Shown: positions 25,528-41,924 of the stretch, in pieces
Numbering within the stretch: the first letter of the stretch is position 1
Layout of the letters: each line of letters starts with the position of its first letter
Origin: a phage
NCBI GenBank assembly: GCA_021146325.1
Contig: GCA_021146325.1_4321.1
Length of the DNA: 45,885 nt
Strand: one strand, 5' to 3'
Notes under the pieces: generated by a model
Database searches by the model: none
Told to the model about the DNA's origin: nothing
Seen by the model: only the letters and a program-made list of their open reading frames with translations
Made by a program: the position numbers and the translations under genes

Positions 25528-25603
25528 TGGTGTTCCGCACTGGACTCGAACCAGTAACTAAGACTTAGGAGGTCTTTGCGTTATCCTGTTACGCCAGCAG
25601 AAC
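25528..25603 (-). tRNA. tRNA-Arg (anticodon CCU)
   Basis: 76-nt cloverleaf folded by hand: 7-bp acceptor stem, D-arm GCGT/ACGC, anticodon loop CUCCUAA, T-arm ACTGG-TTCGAGT-CCAGT, 3' ACCA. Confidence 0.8.
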
Positions 25604-27883: not shown

Positions 27884-27929
27884 ATTATGCCATCCTTGGC
27901 GTCATATCGTTAGGCAAAAAGTGCTATTT
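27884..27929 (-). promoter_or_regulatory. promoter cassette copy (IR TAGCACTTTTTGCCT, 22 bp, CATAAT)
   Basis: IR core 27912..27926. Confidence 0.5.
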
Positions 27930-29817: not shown

Positions 29818-29981
29818 TGCTTTTACCATCTGAGATAAACTATTTCGATCTGGAAATGATTAGTGCTTACAGCGGAAAGGGTTGGCCTTGCGGGGACTGG
29901 TTTAACGAGGACCTGCTTGAGTCTCACGAGATTATGTTGAAGGCAATTGAGAAGGCCAGAAGAAATAGCACTAATTGCTAA
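29817..29981 (+). CDS. small hypothetical protein ending RRNSTNC
   Basis: 54-aa ORF; 3' end lies in the promoter motif. Confidence 0.4.
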   Translation: MLLPSEINYFDLEMISAYSGKGWPCGDWFNEDLLESHEIMLKAIEKARRNSTNC

Positions 29982-30008
29982 AACTCACCGCCACGGATGG
30001 CGTATATT
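29963..30008 (+). promoter_or_regulatory. promoter cassette copy (perfect IR TAGCACTAATTGCTA, 22 bp, TATATT, CATCGAAACGAAAGAGAG)
   Basis: IR core 29966..29980. Confidence 0.6.
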
Positions 30009-30591: not shown

Positions 30592-30758
30592 AATTATACA
30601 TTGTAAGTGGTTGCACACACTATGATGGAAGCGAAGTGATTGCCGCTTTCGATGAAGAATTCAAAGCACAGGAGTTTAAATATAACAAAGAAATATCTTC
30701 AGAAAATCACTTTGACTACTACAAGATAGATTGCATCTTACTAAATAGCACTAATTGA
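30588..30758 (+). CDS. small hypothetical protein ending LLNSTN
   Basis: 56-aa ORF; 3' end lies in the promoter motif. Confidence 0.4.
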   Translation: MKLYIVSGCTHYDGSEVIAAFDEEFKAQEFKYNKEISSENHFDYYKIDCILLNSTN

Positions 30759-30788
30759 TAATGCATTATAAGCGGCTATTGATATAAT
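30743..30788 (+). promoter_or_regulatory. promoter cassette copy (IR TAGCACTAATTGATA, 22 bp, TATAAT)
   Basis: IR core 30746..30760. Confidence 0.55.
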
Positions 30789-33963: not shown

Positions 33964-34137
33964 CTATTCTGCGATAATAAATTCCACCAAAGAGCCATCA
34001 ATTGGCGCCAGGATGTGAGTCATATCGTCTCCGTAAATCTTGTAGTAACCATCTCCAAGCGACTCTCCGCTATAAGGTTGGCTCTCGGTAAAAGGCAGTG
34101 TCTTGGAGTTGTTTTTAACGCAGTATAATTTAGTCAT
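33964..34137 (-). CDS. small hypothetical protein
   Basis: 57-aa ORF downstream of a promoter cassette; not in the ORF track. Confidence 0.4.
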   Translation of the reverse strand: MTKLYCVKNNSKTLPFTESQPYSGESLGDGYYKIYGDDMTHILAPIDGSLVEFIIAE

Positions 34138-34168: not shown

Positions 34169-34214
34169 ATTATGCCGCATCTCTACGGCGATTGTTTAGC
34201 AATTCGTGCTATTG
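34169..34214 (-). promoter_or_regulatory. promoter cassette copy (perfect IR TAGCACGAATTGCTA, 22 bp, CATAAT, CATCGAAAAC)
   Basis: IR core 34197..34211; motif supplies the kinase C-terminus INSTNC and stop. Confidence 0.6.
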
Positions 34215-34750
34215 ATCACATCAATTACTATTTCTGTGGTTCTTTTAATATCACCTTCAATAACATCAATATCAATCTCCCTGGCGCAGACACCACTAAG
34301 ATACGACCTACTATCTCCTTCGAAAGTGTATCCATGTCGATGAAGTCTAATTAATGTAACTTCAACACCTTCATCAATTAGTGGCTTAATCTCACTCGCG
34401 AACCCACCATCAGAACAAATGTAGCATCCATCACCAAGTGATTGCGCGAGCCTTTTACCAAAAACATCATCGCCAAAAACTGGCTTCATCACTGATTCGC
34501 TAATCCAAATCATAAATTCACGAACAGTCATTCCACCAAGAAATTCGTGTGGTGATTCTTTGTACCCTCGGTCATCGTAATTATTAATAAATCCATCAAA
34601 CTCATCGCTTGATAGTATTCCTTTTGCAACATTAAACATTGGTGACTTGAATGAAACCTTATCCTTGCAAATTCCAAGATTAACAATGATATCTGCAACT
34701 GTATCTTTTCCAGCACCAGGGGGTGCATTAATGATGATTAACTTTTTCAT
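34196..34750 (-). CDS. P-loop nucleotide or polynucleotide kinase (dNMP kinase-like)
   Basis: N-terminus MKKLIIINAPPGAGKDT resembles T4 dNMP kinase; start taken at Met 17 of the ORF-track ORF. Confidence 0.6.
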   Translation of the reverse strand: MKKLIIINAPPGAGKDTVADIIVNLGICKDKVSFKSPMFNVAKGILSSDEFDGFINNYDDRGYKESPHEFLGGMTVREFMIWISESVMKPVFGDDVFGKRLAQSLGDGCYICSDGGFASEIKPLIDEGVEVTLIRLHRHGYTFEGDSRSYLSGVCAREIDIDVIEGDIKRTTEIVIDVINSTNC

Positions 34751-34751
34751 T

Positions 34752-35225
34752 TTATTCTCCGTGAGATTCGCAGTCTTTTGGTAATTCTTTATATTCACAA
34801 ACTGACATTACAGTATATCCGCAATTCCTTAGGTGACTGATAACATTAGGATTATCCTCAAAGATTATCACACTTGCTTTGTCACCATTACACAAATCAT
34901 TTAGCCACATCTCTTTAATGATATAGTCATTTCTGTTATCCAATCTACTCCTCATATATATTCCATCATAATTAATATTATTATACTGAAGCCATTCAAG
35001 CGTCATACATTCGACTTCGTCACTTCTTGAAGTCATGATGTAAACTGGCGATAACTCAGCTAACGCATTCATCATGTTTATCATTGGAATTATAGGTGAA
35101 TCTCCAGAACAGGCTCTATTGTAATCACCCCAACTTGAAGTCAAGTGAAGGTCACTAGATGGTAAGAGGTAGCTTCTATGTTCATTGTTAGCAATAGTTC
35201 CATCAATATCAAACACGTAAATCAT
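34752..35225 (-). CDS. HAD-superfamily phosphatase
   Basis: motif I VFDIDGTI at the N-terminus; paired with the kinase gene. Confidence 0.6.
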   Translation of the reverse strand: MIYVFDIDGTIANNEHRSYLLPSSDLHLTSSWGDYNRACSGDSPIIPMINMMNALAELSPVYIMTSRSDEVECMTLEWLQYNNINYDGIYMRSRLDNRNDYIIKEMWLNDLCNGDKASVIIFEDNPNVISHLRNCGYTVMSVCEYKELPKDCESHGE

Positions 35226-35255
35226 TACAACTCCTCATCTCGTTATCGTTTATTC

Positions 35256-35301
35256 ATTTTGCCTCAATCCTTTGAGGCTTTATTAACAAAAAGTGCTACT
35301 T
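35256..35301 (-). promoter_or_regulatory. promoter cassette copy (IR TAGCACTTTTTGTTA, 22 bp, CAAAAT)
   Basis: IR core 35284..35298. Confidence 0.45.
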
Positions 35302-36433
35302 AGAACATCTCAGGGCGACAAATAAATCGACCAACCTCACCAAAACGCTTATGGTAAACGATTACCGCTGCTTGACGCATTGAGCGCCATCCTCCATTAG
35401 CTGAGTAGGCATCTGGCGCGCCAAGCTGACCATGAACTTCATCGATACCCAGGTTTGTTTCTGTAATTTTCTGACTATGCCAGTGGCCCGAGTGTGTATA
35501 GACATATTCGCTGTTACCGAATAGTTTACGAAAGTCTGTAGCCATTACTGTAAGTCGAGTTTCAGCTTTTCGCATCTGGTGACCATGAGTATAACCAATC
35601 AATGTTGAGCCGAAGCTTGTCATCAGCATTGCTGCTGGGCTTACGTCGACAGTAATTCGCTCCTCGTCTTCATAGAATGCCGCCAATGCTGCACGCAACC
35701 AAACCATCCCAGCTTCGTCGTGATTTCCACTTATTACTTTAATATCAATGATTTGGTGCTTCTCAAGCATCCTTGAAACCGCACGACGCACTGAGCGGAT
35801 TGCTACGTAAACCAATTTAGCATAGCGACTGTCGCTGTCTAAGATATGTCCTGATGCTGGTGTTTTAGCCTCTAGAGAGTCGTAATGCAGAAAATCACCC
35901 CCCAAAACTAATGTCGCATTTCTTGATTTAGGAGCCTTATCTACAGCATAATCAAAGAAGCTATTCATTACCTTCTCTGCTGTTGCAGTGTCGTAGTTTT
36001 CACCGCACTCATGCTTATGAGCCATTGCGCCAATGTGAAGGTCGAAAACAGGATACATAGCCATAGTGTCATCGTCAAAATCAATGTCTGGGCACTCGCT
36101 GGCAATTGCCTTTGGTAAATCAGAACAGAAGGCTTCACGCGCTTGCTCAAGCAGAATCTCAAGGCGTTCATTATCAACGCTTGTCTTAACCCACCGGATT
36201 TTCTCATTCCCTTCCGCATCAATCATGGTAGAAGTGCCTTTTACCATGTATCCATCTGGCACTAGCTTCTTGATACCTTCATTACCATGCCCAACACCAC
36301 TCTTGGCTAACTTGCTGCGACGAAGCTCAACGTTGCGAATGTTCATGCCGTACTTCTCTGCAATTGCCTTGTTAGTCAGGCCATTCTTCAATTCTTCAGT
36401 TAACTGTTCATTTGTAATCTTTGCTACTGCCAT
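35300..36433 (-). CDS. calcineurin-like metallophosphoesterase with N-terminal HTH-like segment
   Basis: motifs DLH, GGDFLHYD, GNHDE, GHQ, GHWH; N-terminal LTNKAIAEKYGMNIRNVELRR. Confidence 0.65.
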   Translation of the reverse strand: MAVAKITNEQLTEELKNGLTNKAIAEKYGMNIRNVELRRSKLAKSGVGHGNEGIKKLVPDGYMVKGTSTMIDAEGNEKIRWVKTSVDNERLEILLEQAREAFCSDLPKAIASECPDIDFDDDTMAMYPVFDLHIGAMAHKHECGENYDTATAEKVMNSFFDYAVDKAPKSRNATLVLGGDFLHYDSLEAKTPASGHILDSDSRYAKLVYVAIRSVRRAVSRMLEKHQIIDIKVISGNHDEAGMVWLRAALAAFYEDEERITVDVSPAAMLMTSFGSTLIGYTHGHQMRKAETRLTVMATDFRKLFGNSEYVYTHSGHWHSQKITETNLGIDEVHGQLGAPDAYSANGGWRSMRQAAVIVYHKRFGEVGRFICRPEMF

Positions 36434-37759: not shown

Positions 37760-37805
37760 ATAATACACCAACTCACCAATTCGTCTTTGGAAATTCGTGC
37801 TATTT
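37760..37805 (-). promoter_or_regulatory. promoter cassette copy (IR TAGCACGAATTTCCA, 22 bp, TATTAT, CATCGAAACGAAA)
   Basis: IR core 37788..37802; its TAG is the VRR-NUC stop codon. Confidence 0.55.
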
Positions 37806-38220: not shown

Positions 38221-39930
38221 TCAATCCTCCATCGTAAATGATTTGTTGGCGATAATATCTTGAGACTTCTGGTTTTTACGGTGTGTGATTCTCAATGGGG
38301 CACGGAATAGATGTGCATTTGTCATAATCATTCTAGCATTACGCAATCTGCCAATTCTGAATGCCTCAGTCCTGTTATCGATGTGTGTTGAGCAGAAAGC
38401 CTTCCATTTAACAGAGCAAACGCGATGGTCTGATTCAGGGAAGAATGTTTCATAAGCTCGGAATCTGTCACCACTGTGAGCCATAACCTCATATGAAGCA
38501 ATAATCCCTGACTGGTTCTTTGTTAACCCAATCTTGAAGTCATAAACTCGCAACCAGTCCCCCTTACGATACATTTTTCCTGATAACTTAGCATTCGGGT
38601 CTATGAGCATCTCACCACAGCATCTGCAATTCTTAGCTGCAATATCATTCTTCTCACCGCATCCTTTCTTGATGATAGCTTTGGTCTGTGGGTCCGCTAT
38701 ATCTTCACACAGTCTAAACTGAAAGAAGTGCTCGCAACGCTTACCGTCAATTACATTATTACAACGCCGTGCGAACGGAGAGTTCTCATAAGAACATGCC
38801 GGGCATACCCTAGGTTCATCACCTCCTTTCCTTGATGACTTAAACTTCTGGTCCTGAACTTCTTCTATAATTGGGTCAAAGTAAAGCTCTGCCATATCGT
38901 CAAGCGTTCCGGCGAAATCGAGAACAACATGGTCTTCTTTTACCATCCCTGAATCCTTGTGTTTTTTCTTAAGAATTCGCATACCACGACCAAGCAACTG
39001 AATGAGTAGAGTAATGCTACCAACCTTCCTCAGGATAATGCTTGTATCCCACGGGGGGCAGTTTACGCCAGTTGTGAGGCAACCAATCTGAAATATGAAC
39101 TTATATTCTCCGTTAGCTGCCTTCTCAAGTATCTCTCTACGCTTCTTCTCACCAGTGGAGTTGGTAACTATCGCCCAAGTAACACCTTCTGGAAGTGCGG
39201 CTGCCGCCTCCTCGCAATGCTGTTTGCCAGCGCAAGTTACCAATGCAGCATTCCTTGTTTCCATAAACTTAGCAGCAAATCCCATTATCTTTTGTGTCAT
39301 CGTTTGGTTTTCGTGAATCTTTGCAGCCATCGCATCCATTTCTTTCTTGCTGAAGTCCTTAACCCCATCACTTCCATCAGGAGTGAACTCACTAAGGTCG
39401 TAGCCCAAATCACCAACTTCACCGTAGACAGTAGGAACAACGAACCCCAAGTCAACAAGGTAGCTGGTTGGCACTTGCATTACAGTTTTGCGCCAGAATC
39501 CACGGACATTTGGGTTACTAACTACAATGTGGTCGTTGTTACGGTACGGGCTACCAGTTAACCCAAAGATACGAAGTTCGCGACCGTACTTCTCCTTGCA
39601 TCGACGCTTCATTTCGGTAATGATTAACGTGTATTGCGCGCGACCAGTGCCAAGAAGCCCGGTATTCACACCATCCTTAAAGACCATCTCACCCTTCTTC
39701 GTGCTCATCTGCTCGAATGTTTCCTCATTCTCTTCAGCTTCTACGATATCCATATGGTCCACCATGTGGCAATTATGTGCCACGACCCCGTCAGCAATGA
39801 AATTATGGTGCTCAGGCATCTCTATATCCCAAACAAGTTCCTTGCCAATGGGTGAGATGTCTTTAATTTTGCTTGATTTTGTATTCCACGCCATTTTCCA
39901 TGTGCTTACTAATTCTCTTAAAAAACTCAT
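38221..39930 (-). CDS. SF2 helicase C-terminal gene: C-intein (53 aa) plus C-extein
   Basis: own ATG 39930 with RBS GAGGT; intein block G HNFIADGVVAHN then Cys; C-extein has helicase-like motifs GLTGSP and QLLGRGMR and zinc-finger-like Cys clusters. Confidence 0.75.
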   Translation of the reverse strand: MSFLRELVSTWKMAWNTKSSKIKDISPIGKELVWDIEMPEHHNFIADGVVAHNCHMVDHMDIVEAEENEETFEQMSTKKGEMVFKDGVNTGLLGTGRAQYTLIITEMKRRCKEKYGRELRIFGLTGSPYRNNDHIVVSNPNVRGFWRKTVMQVPTSYLVDLGFVVPTVYGEVGDLGYDLSEFTPDGSDGVKDFSKKEMDAMAAKIHENQTMTQKIMGFAAKFMETRNAALVTCAGKQHCEEAAAALPEGVTWAIVTNSTGEKKRREILEKAANGEYKFIFQIGCLTTGVNCPPWDTSIILRKVGSITLLIQLLGRGMRILKKKHKDSGMVKEDHVVLDFAGTLDDMAELYFDPIIEEVQDQKFKSSRKGGDEPRVCPACSYENSPFARRCNNVIDGKRCEHFFQFRLCEDIADPQTKAIIKKGCGEKNDIAAKNCRCCGEMLIDPNAKLSGKMYRKGDWLRVYDFKIGLTKNQSGIIASYEVMAHSGDRFRAYETFFPESDHRVCSVKWKAFCSTHIDNRTEAFRIGRLRNARMIMTNAHLFRAPLRITHRKNQKSQDIIANKSFTMED

Positions 39931-40910
39931 CTTGTGCCGACCTCGTTGTTATTGATACTGAGTAAAGCTCTCTCTTTTTCTTGCCGCCAATATAGCTTCT
40001 AACCTTAACTCCGTCATTAGCAATAAATGCTATTAGCGCATCAGCTACTGATTGAACTTCACGCCTGCTAAATGATTCGGTGTGGATTTCTACAACCCTC
40101 TTCCCTGAGCTTACAGTGCAATGACCATCATCACCAAAGTAAGCAGCCCAACCAACTGGATCAAGCTCTCTGCATATCTTTCCAATATCGTAACCATCCT
40201 TAGAATTTCCGTACTTATCAGCATATGAATCCAGAACTTTCGTACATGATGTTGATACGCAAAACCAGTTGTCGCCAAATCCAGGGTTTTTCTTCTCCCT
40301 GTATCTAGGGTTTAGTTTTGCAAACCTTTCAACCTTGCTTAGTGCGTGCTCCTTATTTCCAATATTCCAAGATGGCCTATGCGTTCCTTTTCTGTATTTT
40401 TAATCAAGCAACCATCACCAGCCATTGCCGCAAGAATGTTTTGATGTAAAAAGTCATCAACCTCCATTGATGGGTTGACGGTTGAATTATGATGCCCCGT
40501 TCTGTAATCCAAATAGAAATCGAAAGGGTTCTTAAGAAGTACGCCTAACCCCTTGCTTGAATGCGGCATAACTTTTTCACCACAGCCACACTTGCACGCA
40601 GGAGCTTTTTCGTAAATTTGTCCTGCGAGCCGTCTAGCGACAGATTCATCCCAATACAAAGTTTTCCCGCTCCGACCCAGCAGCCGTTCGAATAAAGTTT
40701 GTGTGTACTCGTGCATTTTATTTCCTCTCCGCTTTCTAATTTAATTGATGATACATGTCTTACACCATTAGTAAAAACTCTTTTTGGCTTATGATAGAAG
40801 TAATCACCAGTGCTTTCGTTTATGCATTTTATTTTATGATTGATAAGGTCTTCGCTATCAATCCTCATCATCCCTGAATCGGTGGTTATCATCGTGTCTC
40901 CAGTTAAGCA
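39772..40910 (-). mobile_element. split intein in helicase motif II: N-intein 40548..40910, endonuclease-like remnants, C-intein 39772..39930
   Basis: blocks A (CLTGDTMI), B (IKCTSTHKLY) and G (HNFIADGVVAHN-C); N-intein ends in a stop after 121 residues; intein DNA is 1139 bp, not a multiple of 3. Confidence 0.7.
39863..40740 (-). pseudogene. homing-endonuclease-like remnant split over two reading frames between the intein halves
   Basis: frame 1 ORF 40339..40716 (Cys cluster CKCGCG; ...AMAGDG...), frame 2 open 39863..40399 without a start codon (...IAFIANDG...); family not assignable by eye. Confidence 0.4.
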
Positions 40911-41354
40911 CTCATCTATCGCGATAACAGCAGGAGCATAGTCACCAAGCCCCTTAAACAAGCCGTTAGCAGCCGTTCCCTCACTAGCCACTATGGTTGG
41001 ATAGTAAACTGATTTAACGTTAAGGCCAGCGCAATAGACGCTATTACGGATGCCGAAATTACGAAGTTCCTCTGCGTTCTGGCTGATAATCTCTGACTGG
41101 CGAGATAGGACCATGTAAGGAAGGCCAAGCTGTTCCATTCGTTTCCCAATCATGGCGAGAATAATCGTCTTGCCAGCCGAAACCGATAGGTCTGCTATGA
41201 ATGGCGCTTCGTACTTGCCAATAGCCTTTCCGATTGCGTCAAATGTCACGCACTGGAATGGGTATGGTGTGATTTCTCCGAACTGATAATCATTTTGAAT
41301 CTGCTTGATTTTATCTTGGTCAAAGTTTGCTACTAAGCGTTCTACTGGAAGCAT
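40545..41354 (-). CDS. SF2 helicase N-terminal gene: N-extein (Walker A SVSAGKT ... IAIDE) plus N-intein
   Basis: 269-aa ORF; the extein junction would rebuild IAIDE-CHMV, a DECH box. Confidence 0.75.
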   Translation of the reverse strand: MLPVERLVANFDQDKIKQIQNDYQFGEITPYPFQCVTFDAIGKAIGKYEAPFIADLSVSAGKTIILAMIGKRMEQLGLPYMVLSRQSEIISQNAEELRNFGIRNSVYCAGLNVKSVYYPTIVASEGTAANGLFKGLGDYAPAVIAIDECLTGDTMITTDSGMMRIDSEDLINHKIKCINESTGDYFYHKPKRVFTNGVRHVSSIKLESGEEIKCTSTHKLYSNGCWVGAGKLCIGMNLSLDGSQDKFTKKLLRASVAVVKKLCRIQARG

Positions 41355-41394: not shown

Positions 41395-41440
41395 TATAAT
41401 AACAGCCATAGAACCCATTGTTTAACAAAAAGTGCTATTG
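41395..41440 (-). promoter_or_regulatory. promoter cassette copy (IR TAGCACTTTTTGTTA, 22 bp, ATTATA) driving the helicase gene
   Basis: IR core 41423..41437, only 14 bp from the divergent HTH gene start. Confidence 0.5.
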
Positions 41441-41450
41441 AGGTAATGAG

Positions 41451-41924
41451 ATGTGTGAAATTGACAAGCGAACTATTAACGGCAATAACGGGACCGTCCG
41501 CACGCAAGACAAGAAGCAACGCAAGCGACCTTCAGGCTACTACGTATTGAAAGATGAAGTAAAGGCTGGTCTACGCGCGCGTCTGGAAATGATTCTTGAT
41601 TTCTACGGCACGAAAGCCAATATCGCCAAGCAGTTAAATGTATCTCACCAGACTGTAGAACAATGGTTTAATCGCGGGATGATTTCGGCTCGAGGGGCTC
41701 AGAGAGCGCATAATGCGTACAAGCGAAATAAGGAAGGGTTCCGAGCTACATTCTGCCGACCAGACCTGCAATTCGACGGTAACGGAAAGCCGCTAACACT
41801 TCGATGCAAGAAACGCCATATGCTTCGCGTAGTTACCGAGGCAGAACTAGCAATAAAACCACCCTGTCGACCGTGGCGCAAGAATAAGATTGCTAACGAA
41901 GCAGCACGAAAAGCTAAAGGGTAA
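41451..41924 (+). CDS. Cro/YdaS-like HTH DNA-binding protein, putative transcription regulator
   Basis: HTH GTKANIAKQLNVSHQTVEQWFNRG; basic C-terminal half. Confidence 0.55.
   Translation: MCEIDKRTINGNNGTVRTQDKKQRKRPSGYYVLKDEVKAGLRARLEMILDFYGTKANIAKQLNVSHQTVEQWFNRGMISARGAQRAHNAYKRNKEGFRATFCRPDLQFDGNGKPLTLRCKKRHMLRVVTEAELAIKPPCRPWRKNKIANEAARKAKG

What the first reader, a model, noticed from the sequence alone, without database searches (positions are those of the whole stretch)
34196..36433. Kinase, HAD phosphatase and HTH-metallophosphatase cluster resembling a split polynucleotide kinase-phosphatase
Seen in sequence: three consecutive minus-strand genes encode a P-loop kinase (INAPPGAGKDT), a HAD phosphatase (VFDIDGTI) and a calcineurin-like metallophosphoesterase with an N-terminal HTH-like segment, each with its own promoter cassette. 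Established knowledge: T4 polynucleotide kinase joins a P-loop kinase and a HAD phosphatase in one protein and repairs host-cleaved tRNA; the same folds also serve nucleotide metabolism. Inference: either a nucleic-acid end-healing system or dNMP metabolism, split across two genes.
Basis: partly seen in the sequence, partly recalled or inferred. Interest (0 to 1): 0.45.

Follow-up and report, generated by a model that had tools for sequence, protein, structure and literature searches.

The report
Phage nucleotide-salvage trio, not split PNKP
Three neighbouring genes of a T1-like coliphage encode a metallophosphoesterase, a Pnkp-type phosphatase and a T4-gp1-type nucleotide kinase; the trio recurs in several phage families, most likely serves DNA-precursor supply rather than RNA repair, and is common and already annotated, though never tested biochemically.

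The parts
35300..36433 (-). Gene for a 377-aa HTH-fused calcineurin-type metallophosphoesterase (phrog_704, usually labelled 'DNA repair exonuclease')
36302..36412 (-). N-terminal LuxR/FixJ-like helix-turn-helix segment of the MPE protein (about residues 8-44)
   Evidence: The profile of 27 homologues matches SsrB, EsrB and FixJ HTH domains weakly (E 0.08-1.1). NCBIfam gives weak hits to TtrR and FixJ over residues 9-42. The model has helices at 8-16, 21-27 and 32-44.
35318..36076 (-). Catalytic metallophosphoesterase domain (about residues 120-372)
35226..35299 (-). 74-nt MPE-HAD spacer. It holds the recurrent cassette (35256-35297), a 7-bp hairpin GCCTCAA/TTGAGGC (35261-35278) and the GAGGAG ribosome-binding site
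   Evidence: Sequence. The spacer is about 97-100% identical in AN_ECEAS and SU57, although the MPE proteins are only 68-71% identical. Cassette pattern: 8 copies against 0.32 expected.
34752..35225 (-). Gene for a 157-aa stand-alone HAD phosphatase of the Pnkp 3'-phosphatase family (PF25109, phrog_415)
   Evidence: Pfam HAD_PNKP at 54.8 bits against a cut-off of 27.6. hhalign to T4 PseT residues 162-298 gives 93% probability. The best solved relative is Pnkp1 4XRP at 1.6e-7. D6, D8, T65, K104 and D124 match T4 D165, D167, S211, K258 and D278.
34196..34750 (-). Gene for a 184-aa P-loop kinase of the T4 gp1 dNMP-kinase / phosphomevalonate-kinase clade (phrog_139). The open frame extends to GTG 34798, but the start used is ATG 34750
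34169..34210 (-). Next copy of the recurrent cassette. It overlaps the last codons and stop of the kinase gene and serves the downstream 57-aa ORF (33964-34137)
   Evidence: SU57 carries a BPROM-predicted promoter at the equivalent place.

Best explanation
This is a conserved, mobile three-gene phage module for nucleic-acid breakdown and DNA-precursor supply. It is not a T4-like RNA-repair system.

Shown:
- The kinase is a small-molecule (d)NMP-kinase-type enzyme of the T4 gp1 clade.
- The HAD is a catalytically intact, stand-alone relative of the Pnkp 3'-phosphatase domain.
- The third protein is an intact binuclear metallophosphoesterase with a DNA-binding-type N-terminus.
- HAD and kinase are made from one bicistronic, translationally coupled unit and are fused in other phages.
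- The phosphoesterase gene stays next to them through rearrangements.

Inferred mechanism. T1-like phages degrade the host chromosome and re-use its nucleotides. On this reading the HTH-phosphoesterase acts as a phosphodiesterase or nuclease on DNA. The HAD removes 3'-phosphates from mononucleotides, bisphosphates or short oligonucleotides; T4 Pnkp's phosphatase also works on 3'-dTMP. The kinase converts the resulting 5'-dNMPs to dNDPs, and host NDP kinase completes the route to dNTPs. The fusion and coupling suggest that the phosphatase and kinase act in sequence on the same molecules.
For: Kinase.
- hhalign to gp1 covers 137 columns at 88% probability; to PseT it covers only the P-loop.
- The P-loop reads GKDT as in gp1 (SGKDT), not GKS as in PseT.
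- BFVD neighbours are annotated dNMP or phosphomevalonate kinases; one is fused to a nucleoside 2-deoxyribosyltransferase.

HAD.
- PF25109 scores above its cut-off.
- All T4 phosphatase catalytic residues are conserved and invariant.
- It is 42% identical to the stand-alone HAD of Krischvirus JEP8, which overlaps the end of nrdB in a td-nrdA-nrdB operon. JEP8 has a separate pseT next to rnlA.

Linkage.
- HAD lies within 6 kb of the kinase in 58 of 82 loci, directly upstream in 30, and in a collinear MPE-HAD-kinase arrangement in 27.
- The same order occurs in Braunvirinae, Guernseyvirinae (M01) and Autographiviridae (Era103), with overlapping HAD stop and kinase start.
- Fusion proteins P0248 (403 aa) and P0267 (461 aa) carry HAD_PNKP plus this kinase.
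- In a 60-kb phage contig the fusion gene is followed directly by an MPE homologue (40% identity, 6e-104).

No ligase.
- None is annotated in ACG-M12.
- tblastn with T4 RnlA, JEP8 RnlA and the Era103 DNA ligase finds nothing in the window.

Literature.
- T1 and TLS degrade host DNA and re-use the nucleotides, and the responsible genes are unidentified (PMC11447400).
- The KanT1 paper notes the exonuclease-'PNK'-dNMP kinase arrangement and suggests nucleotide supply (PMC13164509).
- A mycobacteriophage stand-alone MPE disrupts host genomic DNA (PMC12287305).
Against: - No substrate has been tested for any of the three proteins or for close relatives.
- Mre11/SbcD-type phosphoesterases leave 5'-phosphate and 3'-OH ends, so the source of 3'-phosphorylated substrates for the HAD is unexplained.
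- The HAD looks cap-less like Pnkp, a feature usually associated with macromolecular substrates. This is an inference from the alignment; no HAD model was made.
- A fusion of a 3'-phosphatase with a kinase follows the same logic as PNKP, so polynucleotide ends are not excluded.
- Kinase and HAD each also occur alone in many phages.
Confidence: 0.5

Rival explanations
1. A non-orthologous, two-piece polynucleotide end-healing enzyme. The gp1-like kinase would phosphorylate 5'-OH ends. The Pnkp-type HAD would remove 3'-phosphates (or 2',3'-cyclic phosphates) from DNA or RNA ends. The MPE would trim or open blocked ends. Sealing would be left to host LigA or, in Era103, to the adjacent phage DNA ligase. 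The role would be repair of phage DNA, or a counter to host nucleases that leave 3'-P and 5'-OH ends.
For: - The HAD's closest characterised relatives are all polynucleotide 3'-phosphatases (T4 Pnkp, Pnkp1 4XRP), and it keeps the full catalytic set.
- HAD-kinase fusion and coupling mirror PNKP logic.
- In Era103 the trio sits between endonuclease VII and an ATP-dependent DNA ligase.
Against: - The kinase has no detectable similarity to Pnk beyond the P-loop, and nothing aligns to the essential acceptor-site residues Asp35 and Arg38.
- Its structural and sequence neighbours are mononucleotide or small-molecule kinases.
- The same HAD clade lies in an nrdAB-td operon in a phage that already has a true Pnkp.
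- The window has no ligase.
Confidence: 0.17
2. A counter-defence module acting on nucleotide pools or signals. For example, it could restore dNDP/dNTP pools against dNTP-depleting systems, remove dNMP alarm molecules such as m6-dAMP released by host DNA breakdown, or degrade cyclic-nucleotide messengers.
For: - Bacterial immune systems built from a calcineurin-type phosphoesterase plus a HAD phosphatase exist. One depletes dNTPs after sensing m6-dAMP from phage-induced chromosome degradation (bioRxiv 10.64898/2026.01.15.699771; DS-9 in PMC13092281).
- The phage trio contains the same two enzyme classes plus a kinase that would run the reaction the other way.
- The module moves between phage families like an accessory cassette.
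Against: - No sequence link to known defence or anti-defence proteins; PADLOC gives no hit.
- No paper found links these genes to escape from a defence.
- The MPE gene is a persistent core gene in 508 of 522 Drexlerviridae (PMC13164509), which fits housekeeping better than an accessory counter-defence.
Confidence: 0.1
3. A T4-like tRNA repair pathway (Pnkp plus ligase) that reverses anticodon-nuclease damage, with Pnkp split into two genes.
For: HAD homology to the Pnkp phosphatase domain, and a P-loop kinase next door.
Against: - There is no RNA or DNA ligase in the window or in annotated relatives.
- Removing the 3'-phosphate would block the host RtcB route (established knowledge of RtcB chemistry, not tested here).
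- The kinase is not of the Pnk clade.
- Krischvirus carries this HAD in addition to pseT-rnlA.
Confidence: 0.03
4. Three independent enzymes that are neighbours only because phage DNA-metabolism genes cluster, with no joint function.
For: - In T1-type Tunavirinae the HAD and kinase are separated by 0.1-2 kb, and the MPE lies elsewhere beside the lysis cassette.
- Each gene also occurs alone.
Against: - Gene fusion of HAD and kinase.
- Conserved stop/start overlap in three families.
- MPE adjacency is retained after a change of gene order.
Confidence: 0.15

Closest known systems
T4 gp1 deoxynucleoside monophosphate kinase (PDB 1DEK) and the related phosphomevalonate-kinase fold
   Different: Identity is only 16-22%. 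The window protein lacks the roughly 50-residue insert of gp1. Its nucleotide specificity is unknown. It is coupled or fused to a HAD phosphatase, which gp1 is not.
T4 polynucleotide kinase-phosphatase (PseT) and bacterial Pnkp1 (PDB 4XRP)
   Same: The HAD aligns with the phosphatase domain (T4 residues 162-298) and keeps the nucleophile, the acid-base residue, Ser/Thr211, Lys258 and Asp278. A kinase and a phosphatase are functionally joined.
   Different: The kinase partner belongs to another P-loop clade. The order is phosphatase then kinase. There are two genes rather than one. No ligase partner exists. The HAD belongs to a stand-alone clade that coexists with true PseT in Krischvirus.
Stand-alone phage HAD 'polynucleotide kinase' proteins (phrog_415), e.g. 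JEP8_076, Era103 gp27 and the HAD-only 'polynucleotide kinase' of T1-like phages such as TLS Gp09
   Same: These are direct orthologues (42% identity to JEP8_076; E 1.5e-46 to phrog_415).
   Different: Nothing of substance. The common database name 'polynucleotide kinase' is a misnomer, because these proteins have no kinase domain.
Mre11 / SbcD / PolD-DP1 nucleases and MJ0936-type phosphodiesterases
   Same: Same calcineurin fold and the same five metal-binding motifs, including a GD-x-x-H.
   Different: No SbcC/Rad50 partner. There is an extra N-terminal HTH and a beta-rich segment. Sequence-level membership was not demonstrable (hhalign to SbcD 1.6%).
Mycobacteriophage A10ZJ24 Gp48 metallophosphoesterase (PMC12287305)
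   Same: It is a stand-alone early phage MPE with phosphodiesterase activity that damages host genomic DNA. This is a functional precedent for the proposed role.
   Different: Homology to the window protein was not tested and is probably distant. Gp48 is not reported to be linked to a HAD or a kinase.
T7 gp1.7 nucleotide kinase (recalled from memory, not tested here)
   Same: It is a phage-encoded dNMP kinase thought to speed re-use of host-derived dNMPs in a phage that degrades host DNA.
   Different: It is an unrelated protein without a P-loop.

Membership tests
T4-type bifunctional polynucleotide kinase-phosphatase (Pnkp) | Kinase domain with a GxxGxGK(S/T) P-loop plus acceptor-site residues Asp35 and Arg38, also Asp85 and Arg126 (PMC2831316) | tested here: not met
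T4-type bifunctional polynucleotide kinase-phosphatase (Pnkp) | DxDxT acylphosphatase domain with Asp165, Asp167, Ser211, Lys258 and Asp278 (PMC3592404) | tested here: met
   PF25109 at 54.8 bits against a cut-off of 27.6. hhalign gives 93% probability. D6, D8, T65, K104 and D124 are conserved and invariant among homologues.
T4-type bifunctional polynucleotide kinase-phosphatase (Pnkp) | Both activities in one polypeptide, kinase N-terminal and phosphatase C-terminal | tested here: not met
   There are two genes in the order HAD then kinase. Natural fusions also have HAD at the N-terminus.
T4-type bifunctional polynucleotide kinase-phosphatase (Pnkp) | An RNA ligase partner for sealing | tested here: not met
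   tblastn with T4 RnlA, JEP8 RnlA and the Era103 DNA ligase gives nothing better than E 0.9 in the window. No ligase is annotated in ACG-M12.
T4-type bifunctional polynucleotide kinase-phosphatase (Pnkp) | 5'-kinase and 3'-phosphatase activity on polynucleotide ends | not testable with these tools
   This needs enzyme assays.
T4 gp1-type dNMP kinase (phrog_139) | Sequence and profile membership across the whole kinase core | tested here: met
   phrog_139 at 8e-45 over residues 8-179. hhalign to T4 gp1 covers 137 columns at 88% probability.
T4 gp1-type dNMP kinase (phrog_139) | gp1 / phosphomevalonate-kinase fold with the GK-D-T P-loop variant | tested here: met
T4 gp1-type dNMP kinase (phrog_139) | Phosphorylation of dNMPs to dNDPs | not testable with these tools
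   No experimentally characterised close relative was found. T4 gp1 is only about 16-22% identical.
Mre11/SbcD 'DNA repair exonuclease' | Five calcineurin-type metal-binding motifs | tested here: met
   All five are invariant in 27 homologues at the positions given.
Mre11/SbcD 'DNA repair exonuclease' | Specific sequence or structure similarity to SbcD/Mre11 rather than to other metallophosphoesterases | tested here: inconclusive
Mre11/SbcD 'DNA repair exonuclease' | An SbcC/Rad50 ATPase partner | tested here: not met
   No such gene is annotated in the neighbourhood or in the related genomes.

The most novel reading that the evidence does not exclude
The Pnkp-type HAD and the gp1-type kinase form a previously unrecognised bifunctional 'phosphate-swapping' enzyme, fused in some phages and split in this one. 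With the HTH-phosphoesterase it would convert 3'-phosphorylated nucleic-acid breakdown products or ends into 5'-phosphorylated ones. That would make it a second, independently evolved solution to the PNKP problem, with the opposite domain order. It would be used by more than a thousand phages for salvage, for DNA-end repair or against host nucleases.
Probability: 0.2. Interest if true: 0.55.

Novelty: new member of a known kind. Interest (0 to 1): 0.3.

Why it matters
Homologues of each of the three genes occur in well over a thousand sequenced phages: the kinase in 1447 records, the HAD in 1359 and the MPE in 2046. None has been characterised. The HAD is routinely mislabelled 'polynucleotide kinase' and the MPE 'DNA repair exonuclease'. 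The genes by which T1-like phages destroy and recycle the host chromosome are still unidentified, and this linked trio is a concrete candidate for part of that pathway. The HAD-kinase fusion gives a clear, cheap biochemical hypothesis to test. For genome annotation, the immediate value is a correction of names.

Tried and rejected
- Single-sequence searches of the PDB with all three proteins gave only noise.
- The kinase profile against PDB sequences hit only P-loops, so structure prediction was needed.
- NCBIfam gave nothing above its cut-offs.
- PADLOC gave no hit.
- hhalign of the MPE profile to E. coli SbcD was essentially negative.
- The generic sigma-70 and terminator scan was uninformative for the spacers. 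A plain repeat search did not show the cassette. It appeared only after aligning spacers with those of ACG-M12.
- Literature searches for T1 gene 2.5 and host DNA degradation, for a stand-alone phage 3'-phosphatase, and for dNMP kinase as a counter-defence found nothing specific. The retron Eco2 paper mentioned polynucleotide kinase only as a reagent.
- I considered and rejected a simple read-through artefact for the fusion proteins. They carry 60-110-residue linkers, and one lies in three independent contigs.
I did not retrieve the T5 dNMP kinase for comparison.
Full report
**What the window is.** DNA of 33900-36600 matches Escherichia siphophages of Drexlerviridae, subfamily Braunvirinae (AN_ECEAS, ES, SU57, ACG-M12, Msk), at 74-93% identity. 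The finding lies at the end of a long minus-strand block. That block runs from an interrupted helicase gene and a VRR-NUC gene, through small ORFs, to the holin-endolysin-spanin cassette.

**Check of the observation.**
- The three ORFs are at 35300-36433, 34752-35225 and 34196-34798, all on the minus strand. The quoted motifs are in the sequence.
- Each protein has strong homologues in phages. tblastn finds the kinase in 1447 records, the HAD in 1359 and the phosphoesterase in 2046.
- The kinase ORF is over-extended. All homologues are 184 aa and begin MKK. ATG 34750 has a GGAG 8 nt upstream and lies 1 nt after the HAD stop codon. HAD and kinase are therefore translationally coupled.

**The 'promoter cassette' claim.**
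- A generic sigma-70 scan finds 12 sites against 9.9 expected, none of them in the spacers before the MPE or HAD genes.
- Aligning the spacers with those of ACG-M12 reveals a recurrent cassette. It consists of (A)TAGCAC-N3-TTGNNA (a TAGCA/TGCTA palindrome), 22 nt that often form a short hairpin of variable sequence, a -10-like YAWWAT box, CATCGAAA and the ribosome-binding site.
- A pattern for this cassette matches 8 times against 0.32 expected; 0 of 100 shuffles reach 8.
- One copy lies in the MPE-HAD spacer (35256-35297). The next (34169-34210) overlaps the kinase stop codon and serves the downstream 57-aa ORF.
- There is no copy before the kinase ATG, and only a degenerate look-alike before the MPE gene.
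- The 74-nt MPE-HAD spacer is about 97-100% identical in AN_ECEAS and SU57, although their MPE proteins are only 68-71% identical. The spacer is therefore functional.
- Whether the cassette is a promoter is untested. The 22-nt spacing is wrong for a plain sigma-70 promoter.
- Verdict on this claim: one cassette serves the HAD-kinase pair, not one per gene.

**The kinase.**
- Pfam has no family for it. PHROGs places it in phrog_139, 'deoxynucleoside monophosphate kinase', at 8e-45.
- A 30-sequence alignment shows an invariant P-loop P10/G14-K15-D16 (T17 in at least 90% of sequences) and further invariant positions (R77, S84-E85, K89, D114, G116-F117, E120, D146-S147-R148, Y150).
- The AlphaFold model is confident (pLDDT 91.1).
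- hhalign to T4 gp1 covers 137 columns (88% probability). To T4 PseT it covers only the 23-residue P-loop.
- The P-loop reads GKDT, as in gp1 (SGKDT) and unlike PseT (GKST).
- Nothing aligns to Asp35, Arg38, Asp85 or Arg126, four of the six residues essential for T4 Pnk kinase activity (PMC2831316); only the two P-loop residues align (Lys15 conserved, Ser16 replaced by Asp).
- Foldseek against predicted viral structures returns proteins named dNMP kinase or phosphomevalonate kinase, and no polynucleotide kinase, in the top 50.
- The family is large: 7565 representatives at E<=1e-3.
- Conclusion: the kinase belongs to the gp1-type small-molecule kinase clade. Its exact substrate is inferred, not shown.

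**The HAD.**
- Pfam PF25109 (HAD_PNKP) scores 54.8 bits against a cut-off of 27.6. phrog_415 scores 1.5e-46.
- The profile aligns with T4 PseT residues 162-298 at 93% probability. The best solved relative is Pnkp1 (4XRP) at 1.6e-7, followed weakly by the T4 phosphatase domain.
- The catalytic residues of T4 Pnkp are the nucleophile Asp165, the acid-base Asp167, the phosphate contacts Ser211 and Lys258, and the Mg ligand Asp278 (PMC3592404). They map to D6, D8, T65, K104 and D124.
- R176, R213 and D254 map to R17, R67 and D100. All these positions are invariant among homologues.
- The enzyme is therefore very probably active with Pnkp-like chemistry. T4 Pnkp's phosphatase also acts on 3'-dTMP, so homology does not decide between polymer ends and mononucleotides.
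- The window HAD is 42% identical (5e-34) to the stand-alone HAD of Krischvirus JEP8, but only 25% identical (6e-4) to the phosphatase half of JEP8's PseT.
- In JEP8 the stand-alone HAD overlaps the end of nrdB within td-nrdA-nrdB, while a genuine pseT sits by rnlA about 4 kb away.
- The stand-alone clade is thus a distinct paralogue that keeps company with deoxynucleotide-synthesis genes.

**The phosphoesterase.**
- phrog_704, 'DNA repair exonuclease', matches at 2e-150. Pfam Metallophos scores below its cut-off.
- All five metal-binding motifs are invariant.
- The model is of moderate quality (pLDDT 71).
- The N-terminus weakly resembles LuxR/FixJ HTH domains.
- The fold and an intact active site are shown. 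Nuclease activity is only an inference from the HTH, the GD-x-x-H motif and the precedent of mycobacteriophage Gp48, a stand-alone MPE that damages host DNA (PMC12287305).

**Are the three genes linked?**
- Among 82 loci carrying the kinase, the HAD lies within 6 kb in 58, directly upstream on the same strand in 30, and MPE-HAD-kinase are collinear in 27.
- The same order, with overlapping HAD stop and kinase start, occurs in Guernseyvirinae (M01) and in the SP6-like podophage Era103. In Era103 the trio lies between endonuclease VII and a DNA ligase.
- Two representatives of the kinase family are single polypeptides with an N-terminal HAD_PNKP domain and a C-terminal kinase of this family: P0248 (403 aa) and P0267 (461 aa). 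Their 60-110-residue linkers exclude simple read-through.
- P0248 lies in a 60-kb phage-like contig and is followed directly by a full-length MPE homologue (40% identity, 6e-104; phrog_704 at 2e-149).
- Fusion, conserved coupling and adjacency that survives a change of gene order together argue for a joint function.
- Each gene can also occur alone. In T1-type phages they are dispersed.

**What it most likely does.**
- T1 and TLS degrade the host chromosome and re-use its nucleotides. The genes responsible have not been identified (PMC11447400).
- A 2026 survey of 522 Drexlerviridae noted that 'polynucleotide kinase' and dNMP kinase genes often follow the 'DNA repair exonuclease' gene. It suggested that they extend the replication module and enhance nucleotide supply (PMC13164509).
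- My evidence fits that reading and sharpens it. The kinase is gp1-type. The 'polynucleotide kinase' is only a 3'-phosphatase-type HAD. No ligase homologue is detectable in the window, and none is annotated in ACG-M12.
- I therefore favour a salvage module: phosphodiesterase or nuclease, then 3'-phosphatase, then dNMP kinase (confidence about 0.5).
- Weak points: the origin of 3'-phosphorylated substrates is unexplained, and no activity has been measured.
- Main rival: a non-orthologous two-piece end-healing enzyme for DNA or RNA ends (about 0.17). The fusion logic and the HAD's relatives keep it alive, but the kinase's affinities argue against it.
- A counter-defence role on nucleotide pools is possible (about 0.1), given bacterial calcineurin-plus-HAD immune systems that deplete dNTPs. 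It has no direct support; PADLOC is negative.
- T4-like tRNA repair is unlikely (about 0.03).

**Novelty and verdict.**
- Near-identical clusters are deposited and annotated in many phage genomes, and the arrangement has been remarked on in print. Each protein belongs to a known family.
- This analysis adds three things: the demonstration that the kinase is not Pnk-like, the HAD-kinase fusion, and the persistence of the MPE neighbour.
- This makes the finding a new member of a known kind, with a modest, testable twist.
- Interest is 0.3. The most novel reading not excluded is an independently evolved phosphatase-kinase 'end-swapping' enzyme. I give it a probability of about 0.2.

Noticed in passing
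window 38221-41354 (minus strand): The helicase gene is interrupted by an intein-like insert. The N-part ORF (40545-41354) runs from '...AIDEC' into 'LTGDTMITTDSG'. A middle ORF in another frame (40339-40716) carries a LAGLIDADG-like 'ILAAMAGDGCLIKN'. The C-part ORF (38221-39930) begins with '...HNFIADGVVAHN|C'. The intein coding region appears split over three ORFs and frames. SU57 and ACG-M12 have an uninterrupted 1995-nt helicase gene. AN_ECEAS annotates separate CDSs.
   Followed up: partly
window 27884-27925(-), 29967-30008(+), 30747-30788(+), 34169-34210(-), 35256-35297(-), 37760-37801(-), 41396-41436(-): A recurrent intergenic regulatory cassette: a TAGCA-N5-TGCTA palindrome, 22 nt that are often a hairpin whose stem sequence varies between copies, a -10-like box, then CATCGAAA and the RBS. 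It matches 8 times against 0.32 expected. The palindrome looks like an operator for a dimeric HTH protein. Candidates are the 157-aa regulator at 41451-41924 or the HTH of the phosphoesterase. The -35-like to -10-like spacing of 22 nt is atypical for sigma-70.
   Followed up: partly
window 35226-35299; L086 39123-39193 and 39689-39764: The MPE-HAD junction is a hot spot. ACG-M12 carries an HNH endonuclease gene inserted exactly there, flanked on both sides by copies of the cassette. AN_ECEAS shows a mosaic boundary there, with the HAD 98% and the MPE 68% identical to the window.
   Followed up: partly
window 25528-25603 (-): A single tRNA-Arg (anticodon CCT). ACG-M12 also carries a tRNA-Arg.
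   Followed up: no
L088 (Escherichia phage M01) 1886-3019: The MPE homologue is annotated as two CDSs (855 nt plus a 279-nt 'transcriptional regulator'), although tblastn matches the full 377 aa in related contigs. This may be a frameshift or an annotation split.
   Followed up: no
BFVD A0A6J5RPH7; P0259, P0260, P0288: Other architectures of the kinase fold and family. There is a fusion to a nucleoside 2-deoxyribosyltransferase (a distant structural match), an N-terminal Cys-rich extension (P0259), and long low-complexity C-terminal tails (P0260, P0288).
   Followed up: no
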